This document shows, in pieces, positions 3,366 to 46,009 of a stretch of 64,000 bases of DNA. Position numbers and translations under genes: made by a program. This DNA comes from Rhizobium sp. Q54 (GTDB taxonomy: Bacteria > Pseudomonadota > Alphaproteobacteria > UBA828), in assembly GCA_945902735.1 (NCBI GenBank), contig CAMDNF010000003.1, positions 2,311-66,310 on the forward strand, in the 5' to 3' direction. The notes beneath the pieces were generated by a model. The model saw nothing but the letters and a program-made list of their open reading frames with translations. It had not been told where the DNA came from and ran no database searches. Each line of letters starts with the position of its first letter. Position 1 is the stretch's first letter.

Positions 3366-3410
3366 AGACTATCGCATGACCGATTTCGTGCCAAAAGTGA
3401 CATTCGCCAC

Positions 3411-9523: not shown

Positions 9524-10665
9524 GCCGAGACCACGGAACGTAAAAGCGTACCAAGCGCGGCACTCGCGGTCTTTAGGCTATGGCGCGTGGCGACACGGTC
9601 ATAAGCGGCTTGGCCAAAGGCCGCGCGGCGTGCGTCGTCGTCAAGCAATCTGACCACGGCCTCGGCAAAGCTCATGGGATTGCGCGCCTCGACCAATGCG
9701 CCGGTCACGCCATCGACGATGATTTCCGAAACCCCGCGCTCGTGCCCCGCCACGACCGCCAATCCAGCCGCCTGCGCTTCGAGCAACGCCATGCCATAGG
9801 CCTCATTCACCGCGGGCCACACCATAAGATCCGCCACCGCGTAGAAATCGGGTAAATCATCTTCTGCCCGCATCCCGGCATAGCGAACGCGCTCAGGACC
9901 AAGCGGCGCCAGCGCCTGTTCAACCGCGCCACGCGCCTCGCCATCGCCAACCACGATCAACGCAAATCGAGGCCGCCCGATCAGCTCGAGCGCGCGCCCT
10001 AGCAGGCGATAGGACGCCAGCTTATCGCCCGGCCGCATCATGCCAACGGCGAGCAACCATGGTTGCGCGGGGTCAAGATCGAGGCTGGCCGCGAGCCGCG
10101 CGCGATGGTCCCACCGCGCCTCGCGCGCTGTTTGATAGGGCTCGGGGTCGAGGAACGGCGGCAGGCGGTGTAACCGGCTCGGCACCAAACCCAGCGGCGC
10201 GAGCCCGGTCTCGTCTTCCGGCGTGAAGGAAATCACCGCCGCCGCGCGACCGATTGCGCCCGCGGCAGCCTCGTTGTTGAGTGCATAAGGCCCATGCGTC
10301 TGCTTGCGAGCGAACGAGGCCTCGGCGACCACATAGGGAATGCCGAGCGCCTCTGCGACCTCGGGCCCAATCCAATCGGGCGCCTTGTGGTAGAGGTGAT
10401 AGGTGAACCAGAGGCGCGGTCGTTCTGCCGGCCTCCGCGTTTTGTATTTGGCGATCAATCGGCGCGCGGCGCGCAAGCCACTTGATTTGAGCGCCATCTG
10501 CCTTCGACGATCGCCCTCGCCCTCATAGGCGCGAAACCGCGAGGCCAATTCGACCTCATGGCCGGCCCCTTCAAGCGCCCGCATCAAGAGCCGCGCCACG
10601 CGCCGATCGCCCGACGGCGCCTTGTGGGTCGGCGGTTTCATCGGTGCATAGAACGCGATGTTCAT
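9520..10665 (-). CDS. glycosyltransferase family 4 (group 1)
   Basis: MNIAFYAPMKPP start lies adjacent to the upstream stop. The C-terminal segment VWPAVNEAYGMALLEAQAAGLAVVAGHERGVSEIIVDGVTG matches the GT4 EX7E motif. Confidence 0.8.
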   Translation of the reverse strand: MNIAFYAPMKPPTHKAPSGDRRVARLLMRALEGAGHEVELASRFRAYEGEGDRRRQMALKSSGLRAARRLIAKYKTRRPAERPRLWFTYHLYHKAPDWIGPEVAEALGIPYVVAEASFARKQTHGPYALNNEAAAGAIGRAAAVISFTPEDETGLAPLGLVPSRLHRLPPFLDPEPYQTAREARWDHRARLAASLDLDPAQPWLLAVGMMRPGDKLASYRLLGRALELIGRPRFALIVVGDGEARGAVEQALAPLGPERVRYAGMRAEDDLPDFYAVADLMVWPAVNEAYGMALLEAQAAGLAVVAGHERGVSEIIVDGVTGALVEARNPMSFAEAVVRLLDDDARRAAFGQAAYDRVATRHSLKTASAALGTLLRSVVSA

Positions 10666-11885
10666 GACAGCCCGAAGCGCGCGGCGAGCGGCGCGATGCA
10701 CGCCTCAAGCGAGAAGTGCCGGCGCACATGTTCAAAGCCCGCCGCGCCAAGCCGCTCGCGTAAAGTGGGGTCGCGAATCATCCGCTCAAGCGCCGCCGCC
10801 AGTGCTTTGGGATCGGCGGGCGGCACCAGAAGCCCGGTCTCGCCATCGGTGATCAATTCGGGCACCGCGGCGAACAAGGTCGCCACCACCGCGCGCGCTT
10901 GGCTCAAGGCTTCGAGCAGAACATTCGGCAGCCCGTCCTGATCGCCGCTTGTGGCGCGCCGGCTCGCCAGCACGAAAAAATCCGCGCTCCGTAGCGCCTC
11001 GAGCACGAAGGTCTGCGGCTGCGCACCGTGCCATTCAATATGCGCCGCGAGATTGAGCGTCGCGGCTTTGTCACGTAAATCCGGCAATAACGGGCCACCG
11101 CCGATATGCACGAAGCGCCAGGCGAGGCTTCGCGGTAGAAGCGCGAGCGCGTCGAGCAGATCGTCATAACCTTTTTTTTCTACCGCCCGCCCGACCGAAA
11201 GAATGATCACCGGCGCGCCCATTTGGCTGCCATCGCGCGTCGCCGCATGAGCGGGCGGCGGCGGAAAGCGCTCGAGATCGAGACCATGATAAATGAGTGA
11301 GACACGGCCATCGGGCGCGAGCCCGTTCAAATGGTCGAGATTCGCGCGTGTGCACGTCACCGCGAAGTCGCACGCCTCGAGCTTCTCGCGCTTTTCCCAC
11401 GCGGGCGTTGTCCAAATATCTTTGGCGTGCGCCGAAACGCTGAATTTCAACCTGCGCAGCGCTGCGGCATAGCGCGCGACCGATGAAGGCGTGTGGAGGA
11501 AATGGGCGTGCAGCCGTATCACGTCATCGGCCAATTCATCGGCGAGCACGAGCGCCTGGCCGAACCGGCGAATGCGGTTGCGGCTCAAATCCCGCATCAA
11601 ATCCTTGAGCCACAGAAGCCGCGCTAATTTATAGCCCGGCTTTTGCCGAGCCCGCCGCCATGCGGCAAACACGCGTGACGGTTCTTGGTGCAAATATTCG
11701 GGCAAATAGGTGATGGGCGCCGCGATCTCATCGTGGATCGGGTGACGAACTCGCTCGGTCGGGTGGCGCAATGAATAGAGCCTGAGCTTGAGCCCGCGTC
11801 CTTCAAGCGCCCTGATTTCTTGCGCGATGAAGGTCTCGGAGAGGCGAGGATAGCCCTTGAGAATAAACGCGACCGCCTTATCCAC
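10662..11885 (-). CDS. glycosyltransferase family 4 (WcaL-like)
   Basis: MDKAVAFILKGYPRLSETFIAQEIRALEGRG N-terminus and a GT4 C-domain (FVLASRRATSGDQDGLPNVLLEALSQARAVVAT). Confidence 0.75.
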   Translation of the reverse strand: MDKAVAFILKGYPRLSETFIAQEIRALEGRGLKLRLYSLRHPTERVRHPIHDEIAAPITYLPEYLHQEPSRVFAAWRRARQKPGYKLARLLWLKDLMRDLSRNRIRRFGQALVLADELADDVIRLHAHFLHTPSSVARYAAALRRLKFSVSAHAKDIWTTPAWEKREKLEACDFAVTCTRANLDHLNGLAPDGRVSLIYHGLDLERFPPPPAHAATRDGSQMGAPVIILSVGRAVEKKGYDDLLDALALLPRSLAWRFVHIGGGPLLPDLRDKAATLNLAAHIEWHGAQPQTFVLEALRSADFFVLASRRATSGDQDGLPNVLLEALSQARAVVATLFAAVPELITDGETGLLVPPADPKALAAALERMIRDPTLRERLGAAGFEHVRRHFSLEACIAPLAARFGLS

Positions 11886-11903: not shown

Positions 11904-13130
11904 TCAGGTCTGTCGCGCGACGACTCGCAGGCGCGGCGCGGCGCGGCGCTTTTCGAGCTTCTGGCGAACCAGCTTGTTGACGCTATCGAGCCCGTCGAGC
12001 AAGCCCGGCACCACCACGGCCGACGGCAGACGTTGGCTCGGCAGGCGCCGGATCGCGGTCGCCATGGCGCGCGGGTCGCGCCGCTCGTCCTCGAGCAGCA
12101 TGGCAATGAGGCCAAGCTTCTGCGCGCGTGCGGCACGGATATATTGCTCCATGCGTGGCACGCGGCGCGGCACGATGATCGCGCGCTTGTCGAACGACAG
12201 AATTTCGCAAAACGTGTTGTAGCCGCCCATCGCGACCACGCCGAGCGCGCGCGCCATGAGTGTTTCCATATGGGCATCGAAGGTGATCATGTGCACTTTG
12301 GAAAGTTTGCTGGCGCGTTTGAGAAACTCGCCCTGCTTTTCCGAATGCATGAAGGGCCCAAGCACGAGCAGCGCGGGATAGGGCAGATCAGGATCGTACT
12401 CATAGGCCTTAAGCACCCAATCGATCAAGGCCTCACCATCGCCGCCGCCACCGGGGGTGACCAAAACATAGGGCGCGCGGATCGGCAGATCCTTCAACTT
12501 GGCAACCGATGATGTTTCGGCGCGCCGCAAATAACCCGTGAAGGTAATTTTCTCGCGCACCGCTTTGGGCAGCGAAATCTCCGCCAGCGGATCGCAAATT
12601 TGCGGCAGGCCATAAACCCAGATGTCGTCATAAAGATTTTTGAGCGCGGGCAGCACGTTTTTGCGTTGCCATTCGGGTTCGAGCAAGGAAGGCTCGTCCA
12701 TCACATCGCGTAGGCCCAGCACAAGCGGCGTGCCACGCTCGCGCAGCATATGGAGCGTTTCCGCCACTTCGCCGCGCAAGCCCAAAGGCTCCTTGTCGAC
12801 CAAGAAAAGGTCTGGGTCGAAAATGTCAGCGGTGTGTTTGATGATCGAGGCGCGAAGGTTGATCGTCTCCTCGATATCGATATGAAGGTTGAGCGGCGTG
12901 TATTCGCCATTGCGCAGTTTGATCACGCCCGGCACGCGGACGAAATCGACCCGGCCACGAAGGTCGAAACTGCCGATGATCGGCGAGCCCGATAGAATCA
13001 GAACCGAAAGATCGCGATTTTCTTCGACCAACGAGTGTGCGATCGCGCGGCAGCGGCACAAATGGCCGAGGCCGAACGTATCGTGGCTATAGATCAGGAT
13101 TCGTGGACCCGTGCGCATTTTACTATCCAT
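11904..13130 (-). CDS. glycosyltransferase, GT-B fold (MGT/GT28-like)
   Basis: PRILIYSHDTFGLGHLCRCRAIAHSL N-domain. Paralog of 7770..8921. Confidence 0.65.
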   Translation of the reverse strand: MDSKMRTGPRILIYSHDTFGLGHLCRCRAIAHSLVEENRDLSVLILSGSPIIGSFDLRGRVDFVRVPGVIKLRNGEYTPLNLHIDIEETINLRASIIKHTADIFDPDLFLVDKEPLGLRGEVAETLHMLRERGTPLVLGLRDVMDEPSLLEPEWQRKNVLPALKNLYDDIWVYGLPQICDPLAEISLPKAVREKITFTGYLRRAETSSVAKLKDLPIRAPYVLVTPGGGGDGEALIDWVLKAYEYDPDLPYPALLVLGPFMHSEKQGEFLKRASKLSKVHMITFDAHMETLMARALGVVAMGGYNTFCEILSFDKRAIIVPRRVPRMEQYIRAARAQKLGLIAMLLEDERRDPRAMATAIRRLPSQRLPSAVVVPGLLDGLDSVNKLVRQKLEKRRAAPRLRVVARQT

Positions 13131-13336
13131 CGCGGCCCCCGAGGCCTGTCCATTTTATTTTGCCGATCCACCCATTGTCGGGCGGCGGGTTCGGGCGACG
13201 CATTATGCCATAGGCCGGGCGGATGATGAAGGGCCCACGGACACCGATTTCCCAAGGAAACACGATGGTTTACGACCGAAGCCCGGTGAATTAGTGTGGC
13301 GCGGCGACATACGTGGGCGCGACCGTCTGCCGGGTC

Positions 13337-16021
13337 ATGGAAAAAATCTCTTCAAGTTCATCTTCAAATACACCCGCAGGCAGCAGATCTACATCATCTG
13401 TGTGACCGCGGCGGCATTGCCTTTCTATTACTCCTCACTCGACATCCCGAAAAAAAATCGTTAACGCCGCGCTGAAAGTCGACGACCCGATGACCGCGGG
13501 CGATGAGTTCCCGCGCTATCTCTCTGTGCTCGGCTTCGACATCATCGCGCTCGACCAGCTGCCGCTGCTCTTCGCGCTCTGCGCGCTTTTTCTGGCGCTC
13601 GAGCTCGTCAATGGCGGCTTCAAGATGTATATCAACATCTACAAAGGTCGCCTTGGCGAGCGGATGCTGCGCCGTATCCGCTATATGCTCTATGCGCGGA
13701 TCATGCGCTTTCCCCTGCCGCATTTCCGAAAGATCTCGACCGGCGAGCTGGTCCCGATGATCACCTCCGAGGTCGAACCCTTGGGCGGCTTCATTGGCGA
13801 TGCCTTCGCGCTGCCGGCGCTCCAAGGCGGCCTGCTCCTCACCGCTATTTTCTACATTTTCTCGCAAGATCCTTACATGGGCGCGGCCGCGGTCGCGCTC
13901 TATCCCATGCAGGCCTATGTCATTCCGAAACTGCAGAAGAAGGTCAATCAACTCTCCAAGCTGCGCGTCAAAGAGGTGCGCGGTCTTGCCGAGCGGATGA
14001 CCGAAACGGTGCAGGGCGTGCAAGAAATTCACGCGCATAACACCGCGCACTATCATTTTTCCGAATTTTCCGAACGCCTCGGCGAGGTGTTCAACATCCG
14101 CTTTCAGATCTACAACAAAAAATTCTTCATCAAATTTTTGAACAACTTCATCGCACAGCTGACGCCGTTTTTCTTTTTCACGGTGGGCGGCTATTTGGTG
14201 ATCAAGGGCGATCTCTCGCTTGGCTCGCTGGTCGCGGTGCTCGCGGCCTATAAGGACCTCTCGCCGCCTTGGAAGGAACTGCTCAATTTCTATCAGCAGT
14301 TTCAGGACGTACGAATCAAATACGAGCAGGTGATCGGGCAGTTCGAACCGCCTGGCATGATGAATGAGGAAAAGCAGCTGAGTGAGCCCGAGATCATTCC
14401 GCCCCTGAAAGGCGAATTACAGGCCGCCAATGTTTCGCTGCAAGATGAAGACCAGGTTTCGATCGTGAGCGGCGTCAGCGTGCGCTTCAAACTCGACGAG
14501 CACGTCGCGGTGGTTGGCAGCGCGGGCAGCGGCAAAGAGGAACTTCTGCTCGTTCTGGCGCGCTTGATTGAGCCCACAAGTGGGCGTGTCGCGGCCGGCG
14601 GCACCGAACTCGGCCCCTTGCCCGAAGCCATAACCGGGCGCCGCATCGGTTTCGTGAGCCAGAATGCGTATTGTTTCTCCGCGTCCTTGCGGAACAATAT
14701 TCTCTACGGTCTAAAGCACCGCCCCATTTCCGATCCGCCGCCCGAGATCGCCGATCCCGCCGAACGCAAGCGTTGGCTGAGCGAAGCCGTTGTCGCCGGC
14801 AATTCCCGCTACGACATTTTGGCCGATTGGGTCGATTACAATGCCGCGGGCGCATCCGATAGCGCGGGCGCGACCGGGGCCGCACTCCAAGCCGCCCAAA
14901 TCGCCGACCTCGCCGATGACATTTATCAATTCGGTTTGCGCGGCGCGCTGGATCCCGTCAAGCAGCCTGCGGCCGCAGCAAAAATACTCGAGGCCCGCCG
15001 TGCGCTGAGCGAGCGCATTCATGAACCGGCCTATACGAATTTGGTCGAACGCTTCGATCGCGAGCGCTACTGCACCAATGCCACGCTGGCCGAGAATCTT
15101 ATCTTCGGCAATACGGTCGGCAAAACCTTCGATATGGATCGCCTGGCCGAGCACCCCTTCGTTCTCCAGGTGCTCGATAAATGCGGATTGACCGATGATA
15201 TTTTGACCAAGGGTCATCAACTTGCCGCGACGATGATCGAATTGTTTGCCGATCTGCCGAGCGATCATGAGCTATTCCAGCGCTTCAGTTTCATCAGCGC
15301 CGACGATCTGCCCGATTACCAGGCGCTGCTCGGCCGGGTTGAGCGCGACAAGCTGAAAGAGATCAAAGGCCCCGACCGTACCCGCCTATTGTCGCTGCCC
15401 TTCAAATTGGTGCCGGCGCGTCATCGCCTCGGCCTAATCGATGAGGCGTTTCAGCCGCGCGTCCTTGTCGCGCGCCGTATGTTCCATGATGAATTACCTG
15501 AGGCGCTGGCCCGCGCGGTCGAATTCTTCGATGCCGAGCACTACAACGCGGCCGCGACCGTGCAGGACAATATCCTGTTCGGCAAGGTCGCCTATGGCGT
15601 TGCCGATGCGCAGGACAAAGTTGGCGCGTTGATTTCAGAGGTGATCGCCAGCCATGAACTCAAGGACGTCGTGATGTCGGTCGGGCTTGAGGCAGAGGCC
15701 GGTATCGGCGGCTCGCGGCTTTCGGTCGCGCAGCGCCAAAAAATCGCCATCGCCCGTAACGTGATCAAACAGCCCGATGTTCTGTTCATCTCCGAAGCCA
15801 CAAGCGCGCTCGATAGCGCTTCGCAGGGCCGGGTGATGCAGAACCTCCGTCAAGCCTTCAAGGGCCGCGGCCTGGTCTGGTCGCTCCAGCGGGCGAGCTT
15901 TGCCAAAAGCTTCGATCGAGTGCTGGTGATGCGGAATGGCTCGGTGGTCGAGCAGGGCCTGTTCGAGGAGGTCGACAAAGAGGGGCCGGCCTTCCGAGAA
16001 CTCTCAATGGCGGAAAACTAG
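13337..16021 (+). CDS. atypical ABC exporter (transmembrane domain plus degenerate NBD with an internal insertion of about 290 aa); N-terminal region disrupted by two compensating homopolymer frameshifts
   Basis: Main ORF 13490..16021 has an ABC_membrane-like TM region. Walker A is GSAGSGKE, Q-loop VSQNAY, signature LSVAQRQKIAIAR, Walker B VLFISEATSALD and H-loop position SLQRAS. A segment resembling ENILFG occurs three times (RNNILYG, AENLIFG, QDNILFG) between Walker A and the signature. The ATG at 13337 plus +1 at the A6 run (13341-13346) and -1 at the A8 run (13450-13457) gives MEKNLFKFIFKYTRRQQIYIICVTAAALPFYYSSLDIPKKIVNAALKVDDPMTAGDEF... Confidence 0.7.
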
Positions 16022-16119
16022 GTGGATTCGGCTTTCCCAGGCCGGGTCACCGGCCCATTATAGAGGATAGAGGTCTGGATGAATTGGGCGGGCGGGTCAA
16101 AGGACCATGAGGTGACCTC

Positions 16120-16596
16120 ATGATTTTGCAGGAAGATGTCGATCTGCTGCGCAACATTCCGCTGTTCCGCAACATCGATTCCTCGAAGCTTAAGCTCTTG
16201 GCGTTCACCGCCGAACGCCTGACCTATCACGCGGGCGATGTGTTGTTCAGCCAGGGCGACCAGGGCGATGCGGCCTATATCATCGTTCAGGGTGAAGCCG
16301 ACGTAATCATCAACACGCCGAGCGGATCGCTCACCGTTGCCACGGTCAAGAAGAACGATTTTGTCGGCGAAATCGCGATCCTGTGTGATGTGCCGCGTAC
16401 CGCGACCGTCAAAGCCAAATCGGAAGTTGTCACGCTGCGCATCGCGAAAGACGTGTTCTTCCAACTCGTTCAACAATTCCCGCAAATCTCGGTTGAGCTG
16501 ATGCGCGAGCTCGCGGGGCGGCTTGAGCGCACCAATCAAAAGCTCCAGCAAGCGGTCGGCGAGATCAAGCGCCTCTCTTCCGTCAATCCGACATGA
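16120..16596 (+). CDS. cyclic nucleotide-binding domain protein (stand-alone CAP-type cNMP domain, no HTH)
   Basis: 158 aa with LLRNIPLFRNIDSSKLKLLAF...GDQGDAAYIIVQGEADVI...FVGEIAILCDVPRTATVKA. It lies 99 nt downstream of the ABC gene. Confidence 0.85.
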   Translation: MILQEDVDLLRNIPLFRNIDSSKLKLLAFTAERLTYHAGDVLFSQGDQGDAAYIIVQGEADVIINTPSGSLTVATVKKNDFVGEIAILCDVPRTATVKAKSEVVTLRIAKDVFFQLVQQFPQISVELMRELAGRLERTNQKLQQAVGEIKRLSSVNPT

Positions 16597-16606
16597 ACGG
16601 ATCGAC

Positions 16607-17095
16607 GTGAGTCGGCTTGATAGTTTTCTCCGCCGCATCACGGCGCAACGCGACTGCCTCGATCACGCCGCCACATTGATCGCCGCCATCGAAGGACCGA
16701 TCGTCGAGCTTGGGCTCGGCAATGGCCGCACCTTCGATCATTTGCGGGCCCTCTTTCCGCACCGTGAAATTTTCGCGTTCGACCGCCGGCTCGCGGCCGA
16801 TCCCGCTAGCGCGCCCGATCCCGCACACCTCGTATTGGGCGATTTTCGCGATAGCGTGCCAGCCGCCCTCACCCGTATCGGCGCACCGGCCGCGCTTGTG
16901 CATTGCGATTTCGGCAGTGGCCGGCCCGAGCGCGACCGAGCCCTTGCCGCCTCGATCGCACCGATGCTGTTGCCAATTCTTGCCAAGGGCGCGGTCGCGG
17001 TGAGCGACCAAGCGCTCGATCATCCATCGTTCGTCGCGGCGGCACTGCCCGGCGGCGTCGAACCGGGGCGGTATTTTATCTACCGCATTTCTTAG
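16607..17095 (+). CDS. small Rossmann-fold, SAM-methyltransferase-like protein, paralog B
   Basis: A GTG at 16607 gives MSRLDSFLRRITAQRDCLDHAATLI...IVELGLGNGRTFDHLRALFPHREIFAFDR...LVHCDFGSG. About 55% identical to 3411..3938. It lies 11 nt after the cNMP gene's stop. Confidence 0.5.
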   Translation: MSRLDSFLRRITAQRDCLDHAATLIAAIEGPIVELGLGNGRTFDHLRALFPHREIFAFDRRLAADPASAPDPAHLVLGDFRDSVPAALTRIGAPAALVHCDFGSGRPERDRALAASIAPMLLPILAKGAVAVSDQALDHPSFVAAALPGGVEPGRYFIYRIS

Positions 17096-18886
17096 GCTTC
17101 GCCCGAAGGAAGTCCCGCTTTCAAACAAGCATCGCGCAGATGATCGGCGTCCGCCGGATTCGCGAACGGTGCGTTGGTCAGCATGTCCCGCACCGTGAGC
17201 TTCGCGTTGAGCCGGATGGCCTCACGCACATGAGTGTCGGCGTCCGCGGCTCGTCCGAGCATGGCATGGCTGGCCGCGATAAAGACATGATGCGGGGCGC
17301 GCAGCGGCGAGACCCGCCGATAGGTTTGAATGGCGCGCTCATAGTCGCGCGCGCAGAATTGGGCTTGCGCCAAATAGCCGGCGCGCCGATTGGCCTCGGA
17401 AGGATCGAGCCGGAGCGCGTGCTCGACCCACTCGATCGCCTCGAGCGGCCGACCAAGCCAGGTCAGCAGTTCGCCCTGTTGCGACAGCACGCGCGGATCG
17501 TTTGGGACCAAGGCATAGGCCTGTTCCTGATGAAATTGGGCGCGCTCGAGGTTACGGAAAAAATAGAGGTTGAGCGCCGCGAGCAGGCGGTGGCACTCGA
17601 AGTCATTCGCGCCGAGCGCTTCGAGCGTCCGCACCATGCGTTCGGATTCATCAGCAAGGTCTTTGGTCGAGACACCATAGCCTTGCGCCCATGACTGGCC
17701 AAGAATGCAGGCTCGCCAGGCGTGCGCCTCGGCATAGTCCGGGTCGCGCTCGATCGCTCTCTCGATCATCTCCATCGCTTTGTCGTTGTCCGTCTTCGAG
17801 CGCTTGTGGTGATAGTCCTTGGCGCGCAGCAAATAATCATAGGCCGCCATTTCCTGCGGCGGTTTGCGCTTGGCCACCTCCGTTTGCGCGGCCTCGACCC
17901 GGCCCGGCAAGGCCGCGACGATCATTTGCGTGATCTCGTCCTGCACAGCGAAGACGTCGGCCAAGTCACGCTCGAAGCGTTCGGCCCACAGATGATGGCC
18001 CTTTCCGGCGTCGATCAGCTGGACCGTGATGCGCACCCGATTGCCGGACTTGCGCGCGCTGCCCTCGACGACATACGCGACGCCGAGCTCGCGCCCGACC
18101 TGCTTGATATCGACCGCGCGGCCCTTGTAGATGAAGGTCGAATTGCGCGCGATGACGAACAGATCGGGATAGCGCGACAATTCGGTGATGACGTCTTCCA
18201 CAATGCCGTCGACGAAATATTCCTGCTCGGCATCACCGCTCATATTTTGGAACGGCAGCACGGCGATCGAAGGTTTGTCTGAGATCGCCACAACCTTTGG
18301 GTCTGCTTTCGTGGCCGGCGCCTTGGCGGTGGTCTTTGGTCCCGACGAGCGTTCAAGACGATAGGTCCGCACCGGCTCGGCGATGTTCTTGAAGCGCTGC
18401 GCACCGAGGTCGACAAACGCGACGGGTAGTTTTTGACGCACTTGATCATAAACCGCGCCAGCCACCACGATCGTGCCCGGTTCGGCTGATCCTTGCAGCC
18501 GGGCCGCAATATTGACGCCGTCGCCGAATATGTCGCCACCCTCGACGATCACGTCGCCAAGGTTCACCCCCATGCGAAATTCCATCCGGCGTTCCGGGGG
18601 GCAGGTCGACATTGCACGCCGCGATGCCATCTTGCATATCGAGCGCACACTTTACGGCATCGATGGTCGAAGGAAATTCGGCCAGCACGCTATCGCCCGC
18701 CGTGCTCACCACGCGCCCATTATTGTTTGAGACGCAGCCTTCGATGGAAGAGCGACACGCGTTCAAGGTTTTGAGCGTGCCCTCCTCGTCCTCGCCCATC
18801 ATCCGGCTATAGCCGGCGACATCGGCGCTCAAAATCGCGGCCAGACGGCGCCGCGTCGTGCTCGCGTCCATCATTTCAATACCCAA
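17092..18886 (-). CDS. class III adenylate/guanylate cyclase fused to a TolB/CadC-like segment and C-terminal TPR repeats; apparent frameshift in the G-run 18596-18601
   Basis: ORF 18446..18886 carries the start of the cyclase homology domain (LAAILSADVAGYSRMMGEDEEGTLKTLN...STAGDSVLAEFPS). ORF 17092..18648 has the rest (RMEFRMGVNLGDVIVEGGDIFGDGVNIAARLQ) followed by TPR-like repeats. Removing one C from the minus-strand C6 run joins them: ...CNVDLPPERRMEFRMGV... Confidence 0.8.
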
Positions 18887-19873: not shown

Positions 19874-20047
19874 TCAGTCGAAAGTCTGCTGAACCAAAAG
19901 CCCGACGGGGCCGCCCCGGGCCGCGTTGACGGCAACCCGGTTCAACCCAAGATCGGCCAAGGTGCGGCCATCGATCGCGACCAGAGCGTGTTTCTGCCCG
20001 GCGCGAAGGCGCCAAGTGGCAAACTTGCTGGTCAACCAGCCAAGCAT
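19874..20047 (-). CDS. DUF1127 family small protein
   Basis: MLGWLTSKFATWRLRAGQKHALVAIDGRTLADLGLNRVAVNAARGGPV fits the DUF1127 pattern (R-rich N-term, L.DR.L.D.GL.R); 57 aa. Confidence 0.55.
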   Translation of the reverse strand: MLGWLTSKFATWRLRAGQKHALVAIDGRTLADLGLNRVAVNAARGGPVGLLVQQTFD

Positions 20048-20348
20048 CGGACAATTCCTCCCATTCCCATCTGGCTGAGCGCGCCCCGGCTGAACGCCGG
20101 CAGGCCGCTCGCCTCCATGCCTTTGGAAATGTGCACCCCGCCTCATGCTTGCCAATCACATAGCCGTGACGCAACGCGCACGCTGGCTCACAATCATGAG
20201 AGGAGAAAAAATCCTGTTATTTCAAATAGATCGACCGGCCGTGGGACCGGTCAATTGAGCCGGTGGAGCCGTCTGGTGAGGGTTGTCACAGTCTGTTTGT
20301 GAGCGCCCTCACACCAGCCTAGGGCGCAGACAACGCCGCCTGTGGCCG

Positions 20349-20376
20349 TCTCGATGATCGCGTTGGATCATCGAGA
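20349..20376. repeat. perfect palindrome TCTCGATGATC-N6-GATCATCGAGA. A copy of the core motif TCTCGATG...CATCGAGA recurs at 20804-20835.
   Basis: Seen directly in the sequence. This copy is 16 nt downstream of the DUF1127 gene's stop; the second copy is about 250 nt upstream of that gene. Confidence 0.6.
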
Positions 20377-20391
20377 CGATAGAAATTGGCC

Positions 20392-20559
20392 TTAGGCTGC
20401 GGCCTTGCGCTCGAACTTGCCGGAAGCAACCGATTGAATTTCGCCACGGCTAAGCCCGATATCGGCGAGCTGGCGATCATCCATCGACTGCAGCTCGTTC
20501 AACAACCGGCCCTGTTCCCGCCAGCGCCGAACCACATTGAGAACCTTCAACGTAAACAT
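20392..20559 (-). CDS. DUF1127 family small protein
   Basis: MFTLKVLNVVRRWREQGRLLNELQSMDDRQLADIGLSRGEIQSVASGKFERKAAA is 55 aa, below the ORF-track cutoff. An AT-rich promoter-like region lies upstream (20560-20700). Confidence 0.55.
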   Translation of the reverse strand: MFTLKVLNVVRRWREQGRLLNELQSMDDRQLADIGLSRGEIQSVASGKFERKAAA

Positions 20560-20803
20560 GACACGTCCTTTCTATCAATTAGCTTGGCAATTATGAACGT
20601 TCTGTTAAAATTGCATGACAGATGATTCATTGCCGCGCCTGATGCCATTGATATATAGCATTTTGTGCGGTGCACAATAGATAAAACGGAAGGCCAGCCA
20701 TGCAGTTTATGCATATAAAATGCTACGCTGTGCCCGAGCCGCCACAGGCGACCACCATCGGGGCCTGCCGATCCACCCATACGAATTGTAAAAGAGTAAT
20801 GCC

Positions 20804-20835
20804 AAGTCTCGATGAGCCTGACCCATCGAGACTTG
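20804..20835. repeat. second copy of the TCTCGATG/CATCGAGA palindrome (AAGTCTCGATG-N10-CATCGAGACTT)
   Basis: 11-bp inverted repeat sharing its core with 20349-20376. Confidence 0.6.
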
Positions 20836-20971
20836 GCCGGCGCAACCGCGCCGCGCCGCATTTGCAGCGAAAGCCAAGCGCGTCGCGTACTTTGGTGCGC
20901 GCCCAAAGCGCACGACGCGCGCGCCCGGCGCCTGAGGGCGTCGCGCTAATCGGTCACGATCAACGCGACTT

Positions 20972-21003
20972 GGTATAAAAGGGAAGGGCGGTCGCTGACC
21001 GCC
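20972..21003 (-). terminator. rho-independent terminator candidate for the aminotransferase gene
   Basis: Hairpin GGCGGTC-GCT-GACCGCC at 20987-21003, followed on the minus-strand transcript by CTTCCCTTTTAT. Confidence 0.5.
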
Positions 21004-21013
21004 GCCGCGTCGG

Positions 21014-22411
21014 CTAAACCGAGGTGAGGCCGAGGCCCTTCAGGTCCTTCAGGGTCAAATCGAGACAGAGGCGGAATTTGGTCACCATCTCGTCCACCTC
21101 GCTCTCCTTGATGATGAGCGGCGGCGAGGCGAGCATGACATCGCGCGAGGCCCGCATGATGAGCCCATTGCGGAAACAATGATTGCGGCAGGCGAGGCCG
21201 ACCTTGCCCTCGGGCTGAAAGCCGCGCCGAGTTTTCTTATCGGCCGTCAGCTCGATGCCGCACAGCAACCCCTTGCCGCGCACTTCGCCGACCAGAGGGT
21301 GATCGGCCAGCGCGGCAAATTGGCGTTGGAAATAGGGCCCGATCGTATCGTGGACGCGCTCAACCACGCGCTCCGCGCGCATGAGTCGAATGTTTTCGAG
21401 CGCCACCGCGCAGGCCACAGGGTGACCTGAATAGGTGAAGCCGTGGACGAACTCTTCGCCCGCATTATTGAGCGCGTCCGCCACGCGCGGGCCGAGCACC
21501 ACGCCCGAGATCGGCACATAGCCCGAGGAGAGGCCCTTGGCGATGGTCATGATGTCGGGCGTGAAGCCAAAGGTCTGGCAGCCAAACCAAGCGCCAGTAC
21601 GCCCGAAGCCGCAAATCACCTCGTCGGAAATCAGCAACACGTCATATTTCCGGCATATCCGGGCAATCTCCGGCCAATAGCTCATTGGCGGCACGATCAG
21701 CCCGCCGGCGCCATGGACCGGCTCACCGATAAAGGCGCCAACCCGCTCCGGCCCGAGCGCGAGGATTTTGGCCTCGAGCGCCTGCGCGGCCTTCAGGCCA
21801 TAGGCCTCCGGCTCCATATCGCCACCCTGGCGCCACCAATAGGCGGTCTCGATATGCTCGAACCCGGGGAGGGGGAGGCCGAATTGCGGATGCATCGGCT
21901 TCAGGCCTGAAAGACTGGCCGCCGCCATGGTCACGCCGTGATAGCCAAAATCGCGCGAAATCAGGATCGACTTGTCGGGCTTGCCCTGAAGCTTCCAGAA
22001 ATAGCGCACGATCTTGACAATCGAGTCGTTCGCCTCCGACCCCGAATTTGCGAAAAACACATGGTCGAGCCCGGGCGGGGCGACCTCGGCGATCGCCTTG
22101 GCGAGCTCAATCGGCGGCGGCGTCGAGGTTTGGAAGAATGTGTTGTAATAGGGCAGCTCAAGCATCTGCTTATAAGCCGCCTCGGCGAGCTCTTTCCGGC
22201 CATAACCGAGATTGACGCACCAAAGCCCGGCCATGCCGTCGAGCAGCCGCTCGCCCTCCGAATCCCATAAATAGACGCCTTCGGCCTTGACGATGATGCG
22301 GCTCGCTTTGCCGAGCAGGTCTTTGTAGTCGGTGAAGGGGTGGAGATGATGGTGGTGGTCAAGTTCCTGCCAGCGCAGCGTCTCGGCCTTCGGGTTGGCG
22401 CGCTCGCTCAT
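21014..22411 (-). CDS. class III (omega) aminotransferase, SpuC-like putrescine/omega-amino acid:pyruvate aminotransferase
   Basis: 465 aa. N-terminus TLRWQELDHHHHLHPFTDYKDL and a PLP-enzyme core; AT-III family. Confidence 0.8.
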   Translation of the reverse strand: MSERANPKAETLRWQELDHHHHLHPFTDYKDLLGKASRIIVKAEGVYLWDSEGERLLDGMAGLWCVNLGYGRKELAEAAYKQMLELPYYNTFFQTSTPPPIELAKAIAEVAPPGLDHVFFANSGSEANDSIVKIVRYFWKLQGKPDKSILISRDFGYHGVTMAAASLSGLKPMHPQFGLPLPGFEHIETAYWWRQGGDMEPEAYGLKAAQALEAKILALGPERVGAFIGEPVHGAGGLIVPPMSYWPEIARICRKYDVLLISDEVICGFGRTGAWFGCQTFGFTPDIMTIAKGLSSGYVPISGVVLGPRVADALNNAGEEFVHGFTYSGHPVACAVALENIRLMRAERVVERVHDTIGPYFQRQFAALADHPLVGEVRGKGLLCGIELTADKKTRRGFQPEGKVGLACRNHCFRNGLIMRASRDVMLASPPLIIKESEVDEMVTKFRLCLDLTLKDLKGLGLTSV

Positions 22412-22456
22412 GCATCATCTCCGACATTCGACGCGCGAAGACTCACTCGCTAACCA

Positions 22457-23278
22457 TCATGACCGTGCGCGCCGCGCTTGTAAAAGGCGGCGGCGGGCAG
22501 GGGAGGGATGGTTAGCCTGACGCCGTGCGGCGCGTGCACGCGCGGCCTCGCCAAACGCCCCGAACAGCGCCATCGAAAAAGCGTTCTCGGTCACTTTCCA
22601 CTCGGGGTGCCATTGCACACCGATAGCAAAGGCCGGCGCGTCGATCACGTGGACGGCCTCGATCAAGCCATCCGGCGCGCGCGCTTCGATCGCGAGGCCT
22701 GGCGCCAAACGATCGATGCCCTGGCCGTGGAGAGAATTGACCATCACCTCGGGCTCGGGCCAAAGCTCGGCCAGCTCGCCCCCCGGTTCGAGCGTCACTT
22801 TGTGCGCCGGCGCATACTGCACCTCGCGCGATTTCGAAAGATCGGCGCGGTGATTCATCAAGCCCGGCACTTCCTCAACGTGCTGATGCAGCGTGCCACC
22901 TAAAGCGACGTTCAGTTCCTGAATGCCGCGACAAATGCAAAGGATAGGCACACCGGCCTCGATCGCCTCGCGGATCAAAGGCAGCGTCGTCGAATCACGC
23001 TGCGGATCGTGCATGGTGCCCGGCCGGCTCGACGGGCCTTCATAATGATGCGGTTCAACGTTTGAAGGACTCCCAGTGAAGAGAATACCGTCAATCCGTT
23101 CGATCAAATCCTTGCGATCCAATTCATCGCCGAGCGAGGGCAGCAGAACCGGCAAAGCCTCGGCGCCCTTGGTCACGCCCAAAATGTATTTCTCGCCGAC
23201 GATATGGAATGGGTGAATGCCGACCTCGCGCACATCGGCCGGAATTGCGATGAGGGGCAGGGGGTAGCGGATGGTCAT
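22457..23278 (-). CDS. gamma-glutamyl-GABA hydrolase-like class I glutamine amidotransferase (PuuD/peptidase C26 family)
   Basis: ILCICRGIQELNVALGGTL...VQWHPEW shows the catalytic Cys and His regions of PuuD. Confidence 0.75.
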   Translation of the reverse strand: MTIRYPLPLIAIPADVREVGIHPFHIVGEKYILGVTKGAEALPVLLPSLGDELDRKDLIERIDGILFTGSPSNVEPHHYEGPSSRPGTMHDPQRDSTTLPLIREAIEAGVPILCICRGIQELNVALGGTLHQHVEEVPGLMNHRADLSKSREVQYAPAHKVTLEPGGELAELWPEPEVMVNSLHGQGIDRLAPGLAIEARAPDGLIEAVHVIDAPAFAIGVQWHPEWKVTENAFSMALFGAFGEAARARAARRQANHPSPARRRLLQARRARS

Positions 23279-40802: not shown

Positions 40803-41095
40803 CGCTCGCTCCTTTGTGACAACCCGGCGCCCCAAAGAGGGCCTGCCCACTCGCGCCGGATCGGCCGCCGCCGCCGCCAACAAATTTACCCATTGATTGT
40901 AGAGTCTATATGGTTAACGAGACTTAATCACCCACACGCGTGCAGGGGCGTTCCCGCGCCTCGGAGGAGCCGAGGCGCCGCAACGAATTCTTAGCGTCGA
41001 AGCCCAACAATCAATCGCTTGAGGGCGGTGCGCTGGCGGCCGATTCAATTCGACCCGATCATCAGGTGCACGCCCGACCGAAGGAGAGTCGCGTT

Positions 41096-45943: not shown

Positions 45944-46009
45944 GCCTATTTCCGCCATAATCTTTGCCCACATTGTGTGGGCGCGGTCGGGTGGCAAAGG
46001 GTTAGGATC

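What the first reader, a model, noticed from the sequence alone, without database searches (positions are those of the whole stretch)
13337..18886. Candidate cAMP-linked module: degenerate-NBD ABC exporter with insertion, stand-alone cNMP sensor, small MTase-like protein, and convergent adenylate cyclase-TPR
The ABC protein is catalytically degenerate in every ATPase motif I can read:
- Walker A is GSAGSGKE, with E replacing the Ser/Thr.
- Walker B is FISEAT, with D replaced by S.
- The signature is LSVAQ instead of LSGGQ.
- The H-loop His appears replaced by Gln.

It also carries a roughly 290-aa insertion between Walker A and the signature, holding three tandem copies of the Q-loop-distal 'xNILFG' segment. 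A homodimer of such a protein would have two dead sites, so it is more likely a regulatory or scaffold ABC, or it needs an unseen partner.

It is followed within 99 nt by a stand-alone cNMP-binding protein, then 11 nt later by a small Rossmann/MTase-like gene. The whole set faces a class III adenylate cyclase-TPR gene. The ABC and cNMP genes also look lower in GC than their neighbours. I do not recognise this combination as a described system. It could be a cyclic-nucleotide-gated export or signalling device.
Basis: partly seen in the sequence, partly recalled or inferred. Interest (0 to 1): 0.7.

Follow-up and report, generated by a model that had tools for sequence, protein, structure and literature searches.

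The report
Cyclic-nucleotide-linked ABC exporter with dead ATPase
The window holds one copy, apparently broken by mutations here, of a widespread and undescribed alphaproteobacterial system: an ABC-exporter-shaped membrane protein that has lost its ATPase motifs and gained a new ~300-residue domain, and that always sits beside (or is fused to) a cyclic-nucleotide sensor and a sugar-transferase/importer gene cluster.

Summary
After two homopolymer corrections the ABC gene encodes 894 aa. It has Walker A GSAGSGKE, Walker B LFISEAT, signature LSVAQ, H-loop Gln, and about 295 extra residues between the Q-loop and the signature. The extra stretch contains three detectable copies of a ~22-aa 'strand…NILFG' unit.

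The stand-alone cNMP-binding gene lies directly downstream in 80 of 81 species loci. It is fused to the ABC C-terminus in 19 of 73 full-length family representatives. Its phosphate-binding cassette is invariant.

The TPR-cyclase is clade-specific, but a different, dedicated class III cyclase sits next to the ABC gene in several other lineages.

In this genome four genes carry five lesions: the ABC gene (2), the cyclase, the importer ATPase and the importer binding protein. None was detected in the other 45 kb, so the locus is probably decaying here.

Best reading: a cyclic-nucleotide-controlled, non-hydrolysing ABC-fold export device for an unknown glycoconjugate.

The parts
13337..16021 (+). 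ABC* gene: a type IV ABC exporter fold with a pseudo-ATPase NBD. It encodes 894 aa after two homopolymer corrections; as written the longest ORF is 13490..16021 (843 aa).
13341..13346 (+). Frameshift site 1 in ABC*: A6 where the closest relative has A7 (ATG GAA AAA AAC/T).
   Evidence: The same allele is present in three other assemblies, L006-L008.
13450..13457 (+). Frameshift site 2 in ABC*: an A8 run that needs one base fewer (A7) to keep the frame.
14516..14542 (+). Degenerate Walker A, GSAGSGKEE (Glu in place of Ser/Thr).
   Evidence: Glu in 81 of 93 family members and Lys in 92 of 93. The Lys is often lost in the wider family.
14708..15691 (+). Inserted, mostly helical domain (residues 458-785), specific to this family.
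14642..14710 (+). Repeat unit 1 (RRIGFVSQNAYCFSASLRNNILYG): the native Q-loop strand plus the NILYG helix.
   Evidence: hhalign; DSSP.
15044..15109 (+). Repeat unit 2 (VERFDRERYCTNATLAENLIFG).
   Evidence: hhalign unit 2 vs unit 3: E 5.6e-10, probability 96.6%.
15518..15583 (+). Repeat unit 3 (VEFFDAEHYNAAATVQDNILFG), which leads into the canonical helical subdomain and the signature.
15719..15733 (+). Degenerate signature, LSVAQ.
15779..15802 (+). Degenerate Walker B, VLFISEAT (Asp replaced by Ser; catalytic Glu kept).
   Evidence: Ser in 84 of 93, Glu in 85 of 93.
15887..15889 (+). H-loop position: Gln instead of His.
   Evidence: His in 82 of 93, Gln in 9 of 93.
16120..16596 (+). Stand-alone cyclic-nucleotide-binding protein (158 aa), the partner subunit of ABC*. 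It is intact here.
   Evidence: Pfam PF00027 E 3.5e-22. The cassette GEIAILCDVPRTATV (nt 16366-16410) is invariant in 24 orthologs. Closest solved structures are PKG/PKA CNB domains, E about 1e-32. Adjacent in 80 of 81 loci; fused in 19 of 73.
16607..17095 (+). Methyltransf_17 small Rossmann protein, a frequent accessory gene.
   Evidence: Pfam E 5.2e-55; PDB 3IHT E 1.2e-40; within 2 kb downstream in 52 of 74 loci; an ortholog lies near the R. etli cluster.
17092..18886 (-). Class III cyclase with a CadC-like/BTAD-like middle region and TPR repeats. It encodes 593 aa after correction. It is clade-specific and frameshifted here.
   Evidence: An intact ortholog (81% identity in the catalytic part) is in L009. 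Present in only 2 of 58 loci.
18596..18601 (+). Frameshift site in the cyclase: a G6 run on the + strand (C6 on the coding strand), one base too many.
11904..13130 (-). GT28a: a MurG/GT28-C-like glycosyltransferase, divergent from ABC*. Intact.
   Evidence: Pfam PF04101. Divergent within 1 kb upstream in 71 of 77 loci. The R. etli ortholog is 52% identical.
10662..11885 (-). GT4a glycosyltransferase. Intact.
   Evidence: Pfam; present in 70 of 72 loci.
9520..10701 (-). GT4b glycosyltransferase. Its best, sub-threshold NCBIfam resemblances include MshA and BshA.
8900..9523 (-). Histidine-phosphatase family protein.
   Evidence: Pfam PF00300 E 2e-33; present in 56 of 66 loci.
7770..8921 (-). GT28b: a second GT28-C-like glycosyltransferase.
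   Evidence: present in 61 of 66 loci; the R. etli ortholog is 47% identical.
7009..7773 (-). Conserved unknown protein of 254 aa.
   Evidence: No Pfam, NCBIfam or PDB hit; present in 56 of 64 loci.
6486..7007 (-). Conserved unknown protein of 173 aa with an N-terminal hydrophobic hairpin.
   Evidence: present in 54 of 64 loci.
4602..6489 (-). GsiA/YejF-like double-NBD ATPase of the linked importer. Frameshifted near 5757-5760.
   Evidence: It is fused as 626-631 aa in L001, L002, L004 and R. etli. Present in 51 of 59 loci.
1380..3365 (-). Family-5 solute-binding protein of the importer. It is cut by an in-frame TGA at 2220-2222 that replaces an invariant Trp.
2..1365 (-). The two importer permease genes: 367..1365 complete, and 2..403 the start of the second.
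   Evidence: Pfam BPD_transp_1 and OppC_N.
3303..3938 (+). Second Methyltransf_17 paralog inside the locus.
   Evidence: Pfam E 1.2e-46.

Best explanation
**What it is**

The window carries one copy of a conserved alphaproteobacterial locus. Its core is a two-part membrane device.
- Part one is ABC*, a homodimeric protein with a type IV ABC exporter fold. Its nucleotide-binding domain has become a pseudo-ATPase. It has also acquired a helical platform of about 300 residues, built around a triplicated Q-loop/'NILFG' segment.
- Part two is a small canonical cyclic-nucleotide-binding (CNB) subunit. It is encoded directly downstream, or fused to the ABC* C-terminus in other lineages.

**Proposed mechanism** (inferred)
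- cAMP or cGMP is made by a neighbouring dedicated class III cyclase. In this clade that is the TPR-cyclase.
- The nucleotide binds the CNB subunit, which docks on the NBD-like domain or its insertion.
- This docking, rather than ATP hydrolysis, controls closure of the NBD-like dimer. It thereby controls the inward/outward state of the transmembrane domain.
- The result gates export or flipping of the glycoconjugate made by the adjacent GT28-like and GT4 glycosyltransferases.
- The Opp/Dpp-type importer in the same locus supplies a precursor or recaptures the product.

**What is shown and what is inferred**
- Shown: fold, motif loss, family-wide conservation, gene linkage, and the CNB fusion.
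- Inferred: the ligand, the docking site, the substrate, and the absence of ATP hydrolysis.

**In this organism the locus is probably being lost.** Four genes carry five inactivating lesions, and no split gene was detected in the remaining 45 kb of the window:
- the ABC* gene (2 frameshifts);
- the cyclase (1 frameshift);
- the importer ATPase (1 frameshift);
- the importer binding protein (a TGG-to-TGA nonsense change).
For: **Fold**

**Pseudo-ATPase**
- The motifs are degenerate across 93 close members.
- They are degenerate and erratic across 73 representatives at the 50% level. Walker A Lys, catalytic Glu and H-loop His are often absent.
- R. etli has GSGAE and FVFNRP.
- Conservation is the reverse of the pattern I expect for ABC exporters (NBD most conserved, TMD least; my own knowledge). 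Mean identity is 46% for the TMD, 40% for insertion-b and 31-32% for the NBD halves.

**No partner half-transporter**
- None was seen in the gene tables read (L001, L002, L004, L006, L089, L090, L092, L096). The 83-locus comparison searched only for homologs of the window's own locus proteins, so it was not a systematic test.
- Both the Walker motifs and the signature are degenerate in the same chain.

**CNB partnership**
- The CNB gene lies within 300 nt downstream on the same strand in 80 of 81 loci.
- All 19 full-length representatives of at least 1,010 aa carry a C-terminal CNB homologous over the whole length of the window's CNB.
- The CNB cassette is invariant.
- The CNB protein is more conserved than ABC*: 68-89% against 54-89% identity.

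**Cyclases and phosphodiesterase**
- The TPR-cyclase is in the window, L001 and L009.
- An orthologous DUF427-type cyclase is next to ABC* in Rhizobiaceae, L046, L050, L086 and L096.
- L096 has two cyclases plus an Apyc1-like phosphodiesterase.

**Link to glycosyltransferases and the importer**
- These genes are present in about 85-97% of loci.
- The linkage survives rearrangement in Azospirillum (L030, L084).
- It also holds in the single-operon form in Rhizobium and Sinorhizobium.

**Decay in this genome**
- The lesions are shown.
- Identical alleles occur in three other assemblies.
- No split genes were found in 19-64 kb.
Against: - There is no experimental evidence of any kind: no ligand, substrate, ATPase or interaction data.
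- In the window's own Rhodospirillales clade the Walker A Lys (92 of 93), the catalytic Glu (85 of 93) and the H-loop His (82 of 93) are conserved. The S/T-to-E and D-to-S changes look like a constrained swap. Nucleotide binding, or even unconventional hydrolysis, is therefore not excluded in that clade.
- CNB-like domains can bind other ligands. HetC's domain bound ppGpp and not cAMP in vitro (PMC10986499).
- Most Rhodospirillales loci have no cyclase within 10 kb.
- The role of the importer is a guess, and its linkage could partly reflect conserved synteny.
- The decay reading could be softened by several points:
  - all three frameshifts checked lie in homopolymer runs;
  - the ORFs downstream of them are still open;
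  - transcriptional slippage on A8 could rescue some product;
  - the three matching assemblies may sample a single population;
  - the screen of the other 45 kb was a coarse ORF-adjacency check, so lesions there may have been missed.
Confidence: 0.55

Rival explanations
1. ABC* is still an ATP-driven exporter that uses unconventional chemistry. The Walker A Glu would take over metal coordination from the lost Walker B Asp and Walker A Ser/Thr. The CNB subunit would only modulate the rate, as accessory domains do in many ABC systems.
For: In the Rhodospirillales clade the changes are not random. GK-E is present in 81 of 93, S-E in 84 of 93, Lys in 92 of 93, the catalytic Glu in 85 of 93 and His in 82 of 93. 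The NBD core fold is complete.
Against: Across the wider family the same positions drift freely. Examples are GSGRSE, GSGADD and GSGAE for Walker A; NEAL, NRPL and DDAT for Walker B; and an absent H-loop. The NBD halves are the least conserved part of the protein. The window's own clade has lost the H-loop His.
Confidence: 0.17
2. ABC* is one half of a heterodimeric exporter. Its active partner would be encoded elsewhere, or the linked double-NBD importer ATPase would energise it.
Against: No second half-transporter gene is listed near ABC* in the gene tables read. The 83-locus comparison did not search for one. ABC* has both degenerate Walker motifs and a degenerate signature, so both composite sites would be impaired even in a heterodimer. 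The double ATPase is a GsiA/YejF-type importer subunit. It is followed by its own binding protein and two permeases.
Confidence: 0.08
3. ABC* is not a transporter. It would be a membrane scaffold or signal transducer that couples cyclic nucleotide levels to the activity or assembly of the glycosyltransferases or the importer.
For: The ATPase is dead. The large conserved cytoplasmic platform could serve as a docking surface. One fusion carries a GGDEF output domain.
Against: The transmembrane domain is the most conserved region (46%) and keeps the full six-helix exporter architecture. That fits a conserved translocation path better than a mere anchor.
Confidence: 0.12
4. The cyclase, the CNB protein and the membrane protein form a Pycsar-like anti-phage abortive-infection cassette. 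ABC*-CNB would be the membrane-disrupting effector.
For: The CNB protein matches the CNB part of PycTIR models (E 8e-20). The linked cyclases match PycC models (E to 1e-26). L096 has an Apyc1-like phosphodiesterase.
Against: These are generic domain-level matches. The locus is chromosomal and syntenic with ftsK, lolA and xthA. It was found in at least 580 candidate loci in species-representative genomes. It is embedded in a biosynthetic and importer operon. No mobile-element genes are listed in the neighbourhood tables read.
Confidence: 0.04

Closest known systems
Heterodimeric type IV ABC exporters with one degenerate nucleotide-binding site (TM287/288, BmrCD, PatAB, MsRv1273c/72c)
   Different: Those are two-gene heterodimers that keep one fully active site. 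Each chain is degenerate in either its Walker/H-loop side or its signature, not both. Here there is a single gene, every motif in that one chain is degenerate, there are about 295 extra residues inside the NBD, and a CNB partner is present.
HetC of Nostoc PCC 7120 and the NHLP/'cyclic nucleotide-regulated bacteriocin' exporters (TIGR03796/03797, with TIGR03896 CNB proteins)
   Same: An ABC exporter is combined with a cNMP-binding-type domain, in cis or as a neighbouring protein. The domain is needed for HetC function (PMC10986499).
   Different: HetC has an N-terminal CNB-like domain that bound ppGpp and not cAMP. It also has a C39 peptidase domain and a catalytically essential ATPase. Here the CNB is C-terminal or in trans and has a canonical PKA/PKG-type cassette. 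There is no peptidase, and the ATPase is dead. NCBIfam scores are far below the cutoffs: 50 against 161 for TIGR03896, and 171-177 against 709-853 for the exporter models.
CFTR / SUR (ABCC proteins turned into a channel or a channel regulator)
   Different: This is a resemblance of principle, not homology beyond the shared ABC fold. CFTR and SUR keep one competent ATP site. Here a CNB domain would sense the nucleotide directly.
MsbA / NdvA(ChvA) / HepA glycolipid and glucan exporters
   Same: These are the best NCBIfam family matches: MsbA 197 bits, HepA 187, NdvA-type 152. The genomic association with glycosyltransferases is also shared.
   Different: All scores are far below the family cutoffs (602, 725, 733). 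Those exporters have canonical ATPase motifs, no NBD insertion and no CNB partner.
Cyclic-nucleotide-gated channels of bacteria (MloK1, SthK)
   Same: A membrane conduit is controlled by a C-terminal canonical CNB domain. SthK is among the PDB hits of the CNB profile.
   Different: The membrane domain is entirely different: a tetrameric K+ channel against an ABC exporter fold.

Membership tests
Type IV (ABCB-like) ABC exporter half-transporter | Six-helix ABC_membrane transmembrane domain | tested here: met
Type IV (ABCB-like) ABC exporter half-transporter | C-terminal NBD with the RecA-like plus helical subdomain fold | tested here: met
Type IV (ABCB-like) ABC exporter half-transporter | Catalytic motifs: Walker A GxxGxGK[ST], Walker B hhhhDE, signature LSGGQ, H-loop His | tested here: not met
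   The window has GSAGSGKE, LFISEAT, LSVAQ and Gln. The same or worse is seen across the family.
Type IV (ABCB-like) ABC exporter half-transporter | ATP hydrolysis coupled to substrate export | not testable with these tools
   Needs biochemistry.
Heterodimeric ABC exporters with one degenerate site | Two adjacent half-transporter genes | tested here: not met
   Only one half-transporter gene is listed in the gene tables read for L001, L002, L004, L006, L089, L090, L092 and L096. The other loci were not searched for one.
Heterodimeric ABC exporters with one degenerate site | A chain with degenerate Walker B/H-loop keeps a consensus signature, so that one site stays active | tested here: not met
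   The signature is LSxAQ in the same chain.
Cyclic nucleotide-binding domain (PF00027) | Beta-barrel with a phosphate-binding cassette G-E-x-A-L...R-[ST]-A | tested here: met
   78.6 bits against a cutoff of 27.5. GEIAILCDVPRTATV is invariant in 24 orthologs. PKG/PKA CNB domains score E about 1e-32.
Cyclic nucleotide-binding domain (PF00027) | Binds cAMP or cGMP | not testable with these tools
   Inferred from the intact cassette. HetC shows that exceptions exist (PMC10986499).
CRP/FNR transcription factors | C-terminal helix-turn-helix DNA-binding domain | tested here: not met
   The protein is 158 aa and only PF00027 matches. CRP scores 59 bits against a cutoff of 266.
Methyltransf_17 (PF12692) | Full-length match to the family model and the 3IHT structure | tested here: met
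   186 bits against a cutoff of 27; 3IHT E 1.2e-40. Methyltransferase activity and substrate are untested anywhere in what I read.
Class III adenylate/guanylate cyclase (PF00211), for gene 17092..18886 | Complete catalytic domain | tested here: inconclusive
   The domain is split by a frameshift. The C-terminal half scores 22.0 bits against a cutoff of 21.9. The corrected protein aligns with the intact L009 ortholog, 81% identical over the catalytic part. Nucleotide specificity was not determined.
Pycsar anti-phage system | Compact cyclase plus CNB-effector cassette with patchy, mobile distribution | tested here: not met
   Only domain-level PADLOC hits. The locus is syntenic, chromosomal and embedded in a biosynthetic operon.
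MsbA / NdvA / HepA / NHLP exporters (NCBIfam) | Score above the curated family cutoff | tested here: not met
   197 against 602, 152 against 733, 187 against 725, 177 against 853.

The most novel reading that the evidence does not exclude
ABC* with its CNB subunit is a ligand-gated ABC-fold conduit that needs no ATP hydrolysis at all. Binding of a cyclic nucleotide to the CNB subunit would replace the ATP cycle as the switch that opens or closes an exporter-type transmembrane domain. This would be a bacterial, CFTR-like conversion of a pump into a gated channel or facilitator, used to release or flip a specific glycoconjugate on a second-messenger signal.
Probability: 0.25. Interest if true: 0.85.

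Novelty: new variant of a known kind. Interest (0 to 1): 0.68.

Why it matters
**If the reading is right**
- This would be a large, conserved protein family in which the ABC exporter fold works without a catalytic ATPase. Control would come from a canonical cyclic-nucleotide sensor instead.
  - The inserted domain defines 1,240 clusters at 50% identity.
  - I found no Pfam-A or NCBIfam model for the insertion and no description in the searchable literature.
- It would bear on how far the ABC exporter machine can be uncoupled from ATP.
- It would give a direct, non-transcriptional target for cAMP/cGMP in Alphaproteobacteria. From my own knowledge, rhizobia encode dozens of cyclases with few known effectors.
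- It would point to an unknown glycoconjugate with its own export and import routes.

**It is directly testable**
- Intact orthologs exist in genetically tractable rhizobia: R. etli CFN42 p42e (RHE_RS24190-24235), R. leguminosarum, and S. meliloti SM11 pSymB.

**A point for S. meliloti work**
- The reference record of strain Rm1021 carries frameshifts in both the ABC* and cyclase orthologs.
- If these are real, they might explain why the system has not surfaced in classical genetics. That link is my speculation.

**For this window**
- The practical point is annotation. The 843-aa 'ABC transporter' and the truncated cyclase are fragments of disrupted genes.

Tried and rejected
- **Sequencing-error explanation for the frameshifts.** Rejected as the sole explanation. 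Three other MEGAHIT/Logan contigs carry identical A6, A8 and G6 alleles at 99.99-100% identity. They may still come from one population.
- **Genome-wide pseudogenisation or poor assembly.** A GC3-guided scan for split ORFs in 19-64 kb gave two candidates. Pfam showed both to be separate genes.
- **A regulatory palindrome in the divergent promoter 13131-13336.** No inverted repeat was found, and I did not pursue it.
- **Foreign origin, from the lower GC.** The difference is 0.03, shared with the other transport genes, and the synteny is conserved.
- **Fold identification of the insertion.**
  - The AFDB library was unavailable.
- **Literature searches.**
  - I searched for the system, Methyltransf_17, and guessed S. 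meliloti locus tags. No description turned up.
  - The Clr regulon paper (PMC5498481) did not mention the cluster in the passages I read.
  - The guessed SMb2148x tags were wrong, and the old locus tags remain unidentified.
- **The 254-aa and 173-aa proteins.** No family or PDB sequence match, even at lax thresholds. The only hint is a faint precomputed DUF2334 hit in one ortholog.
- **The product of the glycosyltransferases.**
  - GT4b has weak MshA/BshA resemblance, a phosphatase lies next to it, and the 254-aa protein may be deacetylase-like.
  - Together these hint at a GlcN-glycoside primer made through a phosphorylated intermediate.
  - This is a lead only, and I do not claim it.

Full report
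**1. What is at the coordinates**

ORF listing and Pfam scans show four genes:
- an ABC exporter gene on the + strand;
- a 158-aa protein with only a cNMP_binding domain (16120..16596; PF00027, E 3.5e-22);
- a Methyltransf_17 protein (16607..17095; E 5e-55; PDB 3IHT at 1.2e-40);
- a convergent class III cyclase with TPR repeats (17092..18886, minus strand).

The ABC gene is not one open frame as written.
- The ATG at 13337 and the long ORF from 13490 share a frame. The 37 codons between an A6 run (13341-13346) and an A8 run (13450-13457) must be read in another frame.
- Making both runs A7 gives an 894-aa protein. Homologs of 894 aa (P0002, 89% identical; P0003, 81%) match it over 100% of its length.
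- The closest relative with DNA in hand (L009) has A7 at the first site and AAG AAG at the second.

The cyclase is also frameshifted, at a C6 run on its coding strand (18596-18601). Deleting one base gives a 593-aa protein, collinear with the intact L009 ortholog.

**2.

The window's motifs, read directly from the sequence:
- Walker A GSAGSGKE;
- Walker B VLFISEAT;
- signature LSVAQ;
- H-loop SLQRAS.

In an alignment of 93 family members with at least 54% identity (A1):

| Position | Count |
|---|---|
| Walker A: Glu where Ser/Thr belongs | 81 of 93 |
| Walker A: Lys kept | 92 of 93 |
| Walker B: Ser where Asp belongs | 84 of 93 |
| Catalytic Glu kept | 85 of 93 |
| Signature: second Gly is Ala | 58 of 93 |
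| H-loop His kept | 82 of 93 |
| H-loop Gln (the window's clade) | 9 of 93 |
| Q-loop Gln kept | 44 of 93 |

Wider sampling shows these positions drifting almost freely. I looked at 73 full-length representatives of clusters at 50% identity, plus R. etli.
- Walker A appears as GSGRSE, GSGADD or GSGAE.
- Walker B appears as NEAL, NRPL or DDAT.
- The H-loop is usually lost.

That test fails to refute.

Conservation by region is the reverse of the pattern I expect for ABC exporters (NBD most conserved, TMD least; my own knowledge). Mean identity of the window protein to the representatives:

| Region | Mean identity |
|---|---|
| Transmembrane domain | 46% |
| Central part of the insertion | 40% |
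| Two halves of the NBD core | 31-32% |

I read this as relaxed catalytic constraint on the NBD.

**3. The insertion**

- A PDB profile search matches the NBD in two pieces, at profile positions about 347-460 and 777-887.
- From the Q-loop Gln to the signature Leu is 353 residues. My rough recalled figure for canonical exporters is 55-60, so about 295 residues are extra.
- An AlphaFold2 model of P0002 is confident (pLDDT 83, about 90 across the NBD and the insertion).
- Pfam-A and NCBIfam have no model for it.

The three 'xNILFG' copies are real repeats of a unit of about 22 residues. The unit is a short strand, a loop, then (A/S)T(L/V)xxN(I/L)(L/I)(F/Y)G.
- hhalign gives E 5.6e-10 for copies 2 and 3, E 1.7e-4 for copies 1 and 3, and E 5.7e-4 for copies 1 and 2.
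- The Asn, Phe and Gly of the units are among the most conserved residues of the family.
- The insertion thus looks like an elaboration grown from duplications of the segment that starts the helical subdomain.

A profile of the insertion finds 1,240 cluster representatives (E up to 1e-3; 444 at 1e-30). In the full-length ones I checked it sits at the same position, about residues 445-800.

**4. The cNMP-binding protein is a subunit of the ABC protein**

- In 83 non-redundant loci from species-representative genomes and long metagenomic contigs, the CNB gene lies within 300 nt downstream on the same strand in 80 of 81 loci with enough flank.
- Every one of the 19 full-length representatives of at least 1,010 aa carries a C-terminal CNB domain. 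It is homologous to the window's CNB over residues 3-145 (29-43% identity). One carries a GGDEF domain as well.
- This recurrent fusion of neighbouring genes, in the same order, is the strongest evidence in the study.
- The CNB protein is under tighter constraint than the ABC protein: the 120 best hits are about 70-97% identical, against 54-89% for ABC. Its cassette GEIAILCDVPRTATV is invariant in 24 orthologs.
- Its nearest solved relatives are the CNB domains of PKG and PKA (E about 1e-32).
- It has no DNA-binding domain, so it is not a CRP/FNR regulator.

**5. Cyclases**

The general idea still holds.
- **Rhizobiaceae.** The locus is a single operon that starts with a 447-aa class III cyclase. 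The examples examined are R. etli CFN42 p42e, R. phaseoli, Sinorhizobium sp. B11 and S. meliloti pSymB. Related ABC* genes occur in 261 PLSDB records.
- **Other lineages.** Orthologs of that cyclase (35-41% identity over about 380 aa) lie directly after the CNB gene in L046 and L086, and nearby in L050 and L096. One carries a DUF427/NTP_transf_9 N-domain.
- **L096.** This is a 3.9-Mb genome in which a fused ABC*-CNB gene is flanked by two cyclases. It lies next to an MBL-fold protein that passes the Apyc1 (cyclic-nucleotide phosphodiesterase) threshold, 66 bits against a cutoff of 50.
- **The remaining loci.** Most Rhodospirillales loci have no cyclase within 10 kb.

**6. The real extent of the locus**

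In order it contains:
- GT28a (11904..13130);
- GT4a (10662..11885);
- GT4b (9520..10701);
- a histidine phosphatase (8900..9523);
- GT28b (7770..8921);
- a 254-aa unknown protein;
- a 173-aa unknown protein with a hydrophobic hairpin;
- a GsiA/YejF-type double-NBD ATPase (4602..6489);
- in this clade only, a PA14 protein and a second Methyltransf_17 paralog (3303..3938, + strand);
- a family-5 binding protein (1380..3365);
- two permeases (367..1365 and 2..403).

Presence across loci:

| Gene | Loci with it |
|---|---|
| GT28a | 71 of 77 |
| GT4a | 70 of 72 |
| GT28b | 61 of 66 |
| Histidine phosphatase | 56 of 66 |
| 254-aa protein | 56 of 64 |
| 173-aa protein | 54 of 64 |
| Importer ATPase | 51 of 59 |
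| Methyltransf_17 | 52 of 74 |

The linkage survives rearrangement.
- In Azospirillum (L030, L084) the block GT28b, 254-aa, 173-aa, ATPase, binding protein and permease sits downstream of the CNB gene on the same strand.
- In Rhizobiaceae everything is in one operon: cyclase, ATPase, binding protein, two permeases, GT28a, GT4a, GT28b, ABC*, CNB.

The minimal shared core is therefore the importer, three glycosyltransferases, ABC* and the CNB protein.

**7. State of the locus in this genome**

There are five lesions in four genes:
- two frameshifts in ABC*;
- one in the cyclase;
- one in the importer ATPase, where the frame changes between 5756 and 5761 relative to the L009 ortholog;
- an in-frame TGA at 2220-2222 in the binding-protein gene, replacing a Trp that is invariant in eight orthologs.

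The glycosyltransferases, the phosphatase, both unknown proteins, the CNB protein and Methyltransf_17 are single-frame and full-length against orthologs.

A scan of the remaining 45 kb for abutting coding-like ORFs gave only two candidates, and both are separate genes. This was a coarse screen.

The three frameshift alleles checked (A6, A8, G6) are identical in three other assemblies, and the 349 + 295-aa split of the importer ATPase recurs in L006.

I conclude that the locus is probably decaying in this population, starting with its transport and signalling genes. I take this co-decay as soft extra evidence that those genes work together.

Caveats:
- The three frameshifts in ABC* and the cyclase all lie in homopolymer runs.
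- The ORFs downstream of them are still open.
- Slippage on A8 from a GTG start at 13294 could yield some product.

A parallel turned up in S. meliloti.
- The Rm1021 pSymB record has the ABC* ortholog frameshifted at a C8 tract, and its cyclase is split.
- Strain SM11 has C7 at that tract and both genes intact.
- Whether the Rm1021 changes are true mutations or errors in the 2001 record is open.

**8. Mechanism**

Shown:
- an exporter fold;
- a structurally complete NBD that is degenerate in its motifs;
- a conserved new cytoplasmic platform;
- obligate pairing or fusion with a canonical CNB domain;
- recurrent dedicated cyclases;
- tight linkage to glycosyltransferases and an importer.

Inferred:
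- The CNB subunit binds cAMP or cGMP and docks on the NBD-like domain or its insertion.
- This docking, rather than ATP hydrolysis, sets the conformational state of the transmembrane domain.
- It thereby gates export or flipping of the glycosyltransferase product.

A homodimer is the simplest stoichiometry.
- No second half-transporter appears in the gene tables I read, although I did not search all loci for one.
- Both the Walker motifs and the signature are degenerate in the one chain, so a heterodimer would not restore a good site either.

The constrained GK-E / S-E pattern in the Rhodospirillales clade leaves room for nucleotide binding, or for unusual hydrolysis, in that clade. That is the main rival.

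The product is unknown.
- GT28-type enzymes act on lipid-linked or diacylglycerol acceptors in known cases (MurG, MGDG synthase; my own knowledge).
- GT4b weakly resembles MshA and BshA and sits next to a phosphatase.
- Neither point is more than a lead.

**9. Comparison with what is known**

- The nearest structural relatives are heterodimeric exporters with one degenerate site.
- The nearest functional precedent is HetC, a peptidase-ABC exporter. Its N-terminal CNB-like domain is essential and bound ppGpp in vitro (PMC10986499).
- A 2023 review of post-translational control of bacterial transporters mentions CNB fusions only for MFS transporters, in the one passage my term search returned (PMC10710835).
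- I found no paper describing this family, its insertion or the locus. The library covers open-access papers only.
- PADLOC gives only domain-level resemblance to Pycsar components. The chromosomal, syntenic, biosynthetic context argues against a defence role.

**10. Verdict**

  - It is right about the dead ATPase, the CNB partnership and the cyclic-nucleotide link.
  - It is wrong about the membership of this particular cyclase.
  - It is incomplete about the extent of the locus.
  - It did not recognise that the local copy is disrupted.
- As a lead to an undescribed, widespread and testable system, it is of real interest.

Noticed in passing
window 3303..3938 (+): A second Methyltransf_17 paralog (Pfam E 1.2e-46) sits inside the importer part of the locus, next to a PA14-domain gene (3943..4584, minus strand). 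It is also present in the close relative L009 but was not found at that position in the other loci compared.
   Followed up: partly
window 2220..2222 (minus-strand gene 1380..3365): An in-frame TGA splits the family-5 solute-binding protein gene. It replaces a Trp that is invariant in eight orthologs (a TGG-to-TGA change).
   Followed up: yes
window about 5757..5760 (minus-strand gene 4602..6489): A frameshift splits the GsiA/YejF-type double-NBD ATPase, which is a single protein of 626-631 aa in relatives. The same split (349 + 295 aa) is called in L006.
   Followed up: yes
L091 (S. meliloti Rm1021 pSymB, NC_003078.1 826000-850000) compared with L097 (strain SM11): In the Rm1021 record the ABC* ortholog is frameshifted at a C8 tract (L091 about 16120), where SM11 has C7. 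The adjacent cyclase is also split in Rm1021. Both genes are intact in SM11. This is either a strain-specific loss in the reference lab strain or an error in the 2001 sequence.
   Followed up: partly
L096 7803..15215: A fused ABC*-CNB gene (1,156 aa) is flanked by two class III cyclases, one with a DUF427 N-domain. Next to it is an MBL-fold protein that passes the Apyc1 cyclic-nucleotide phosphodiesterase threshold. Synthesis, degradation and receptor are thus all in one locus.
   Followed up: partly
L093 3792..5696; L095 3690..4127; P0312: Other contexts of fused ABC*-CNB genes: one is followed by a 634-aa Sulfatase-family protein, one by an extra stand-alone CNB protein, and one carries a C-terminal GGDEF domain.
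   Followed up: no
L092 (R. etli p42e) 20026..23132: Next to the R. etli cluster lie a nucleotide-sugar dehydrogenase, a DUF3095 protein whose sequence looked to me like a nucleotide cyclase (by eye, not tested), and the Methyltransf_17 ortholog. DUF3095 is also next to the S. meliloti cluster.
   Followed up: no
window 40928..46636 (+): A 1,672-aa stop-to-stop ORF encoding an NAD-specific glutamate dehydrogenase is followed immediately, in the same frame after its stop codon, by a 230-aa protein with an eCIS core domain (PF13699).
   Followed up: no
ABC* family alignment (window residues 394-402 and 815-822): In the Rhodospirillales clade the acidic and hydroxyl residues appear swapped between the two motifs that hold Mg2+. 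Walker A has S/T replaced by E, and Walker B has D replaced by S. Both changes are conserved in more than 85% of members. This may mean a constrained, altered nucleotide site rather than simple decay.
   Followed up: partly
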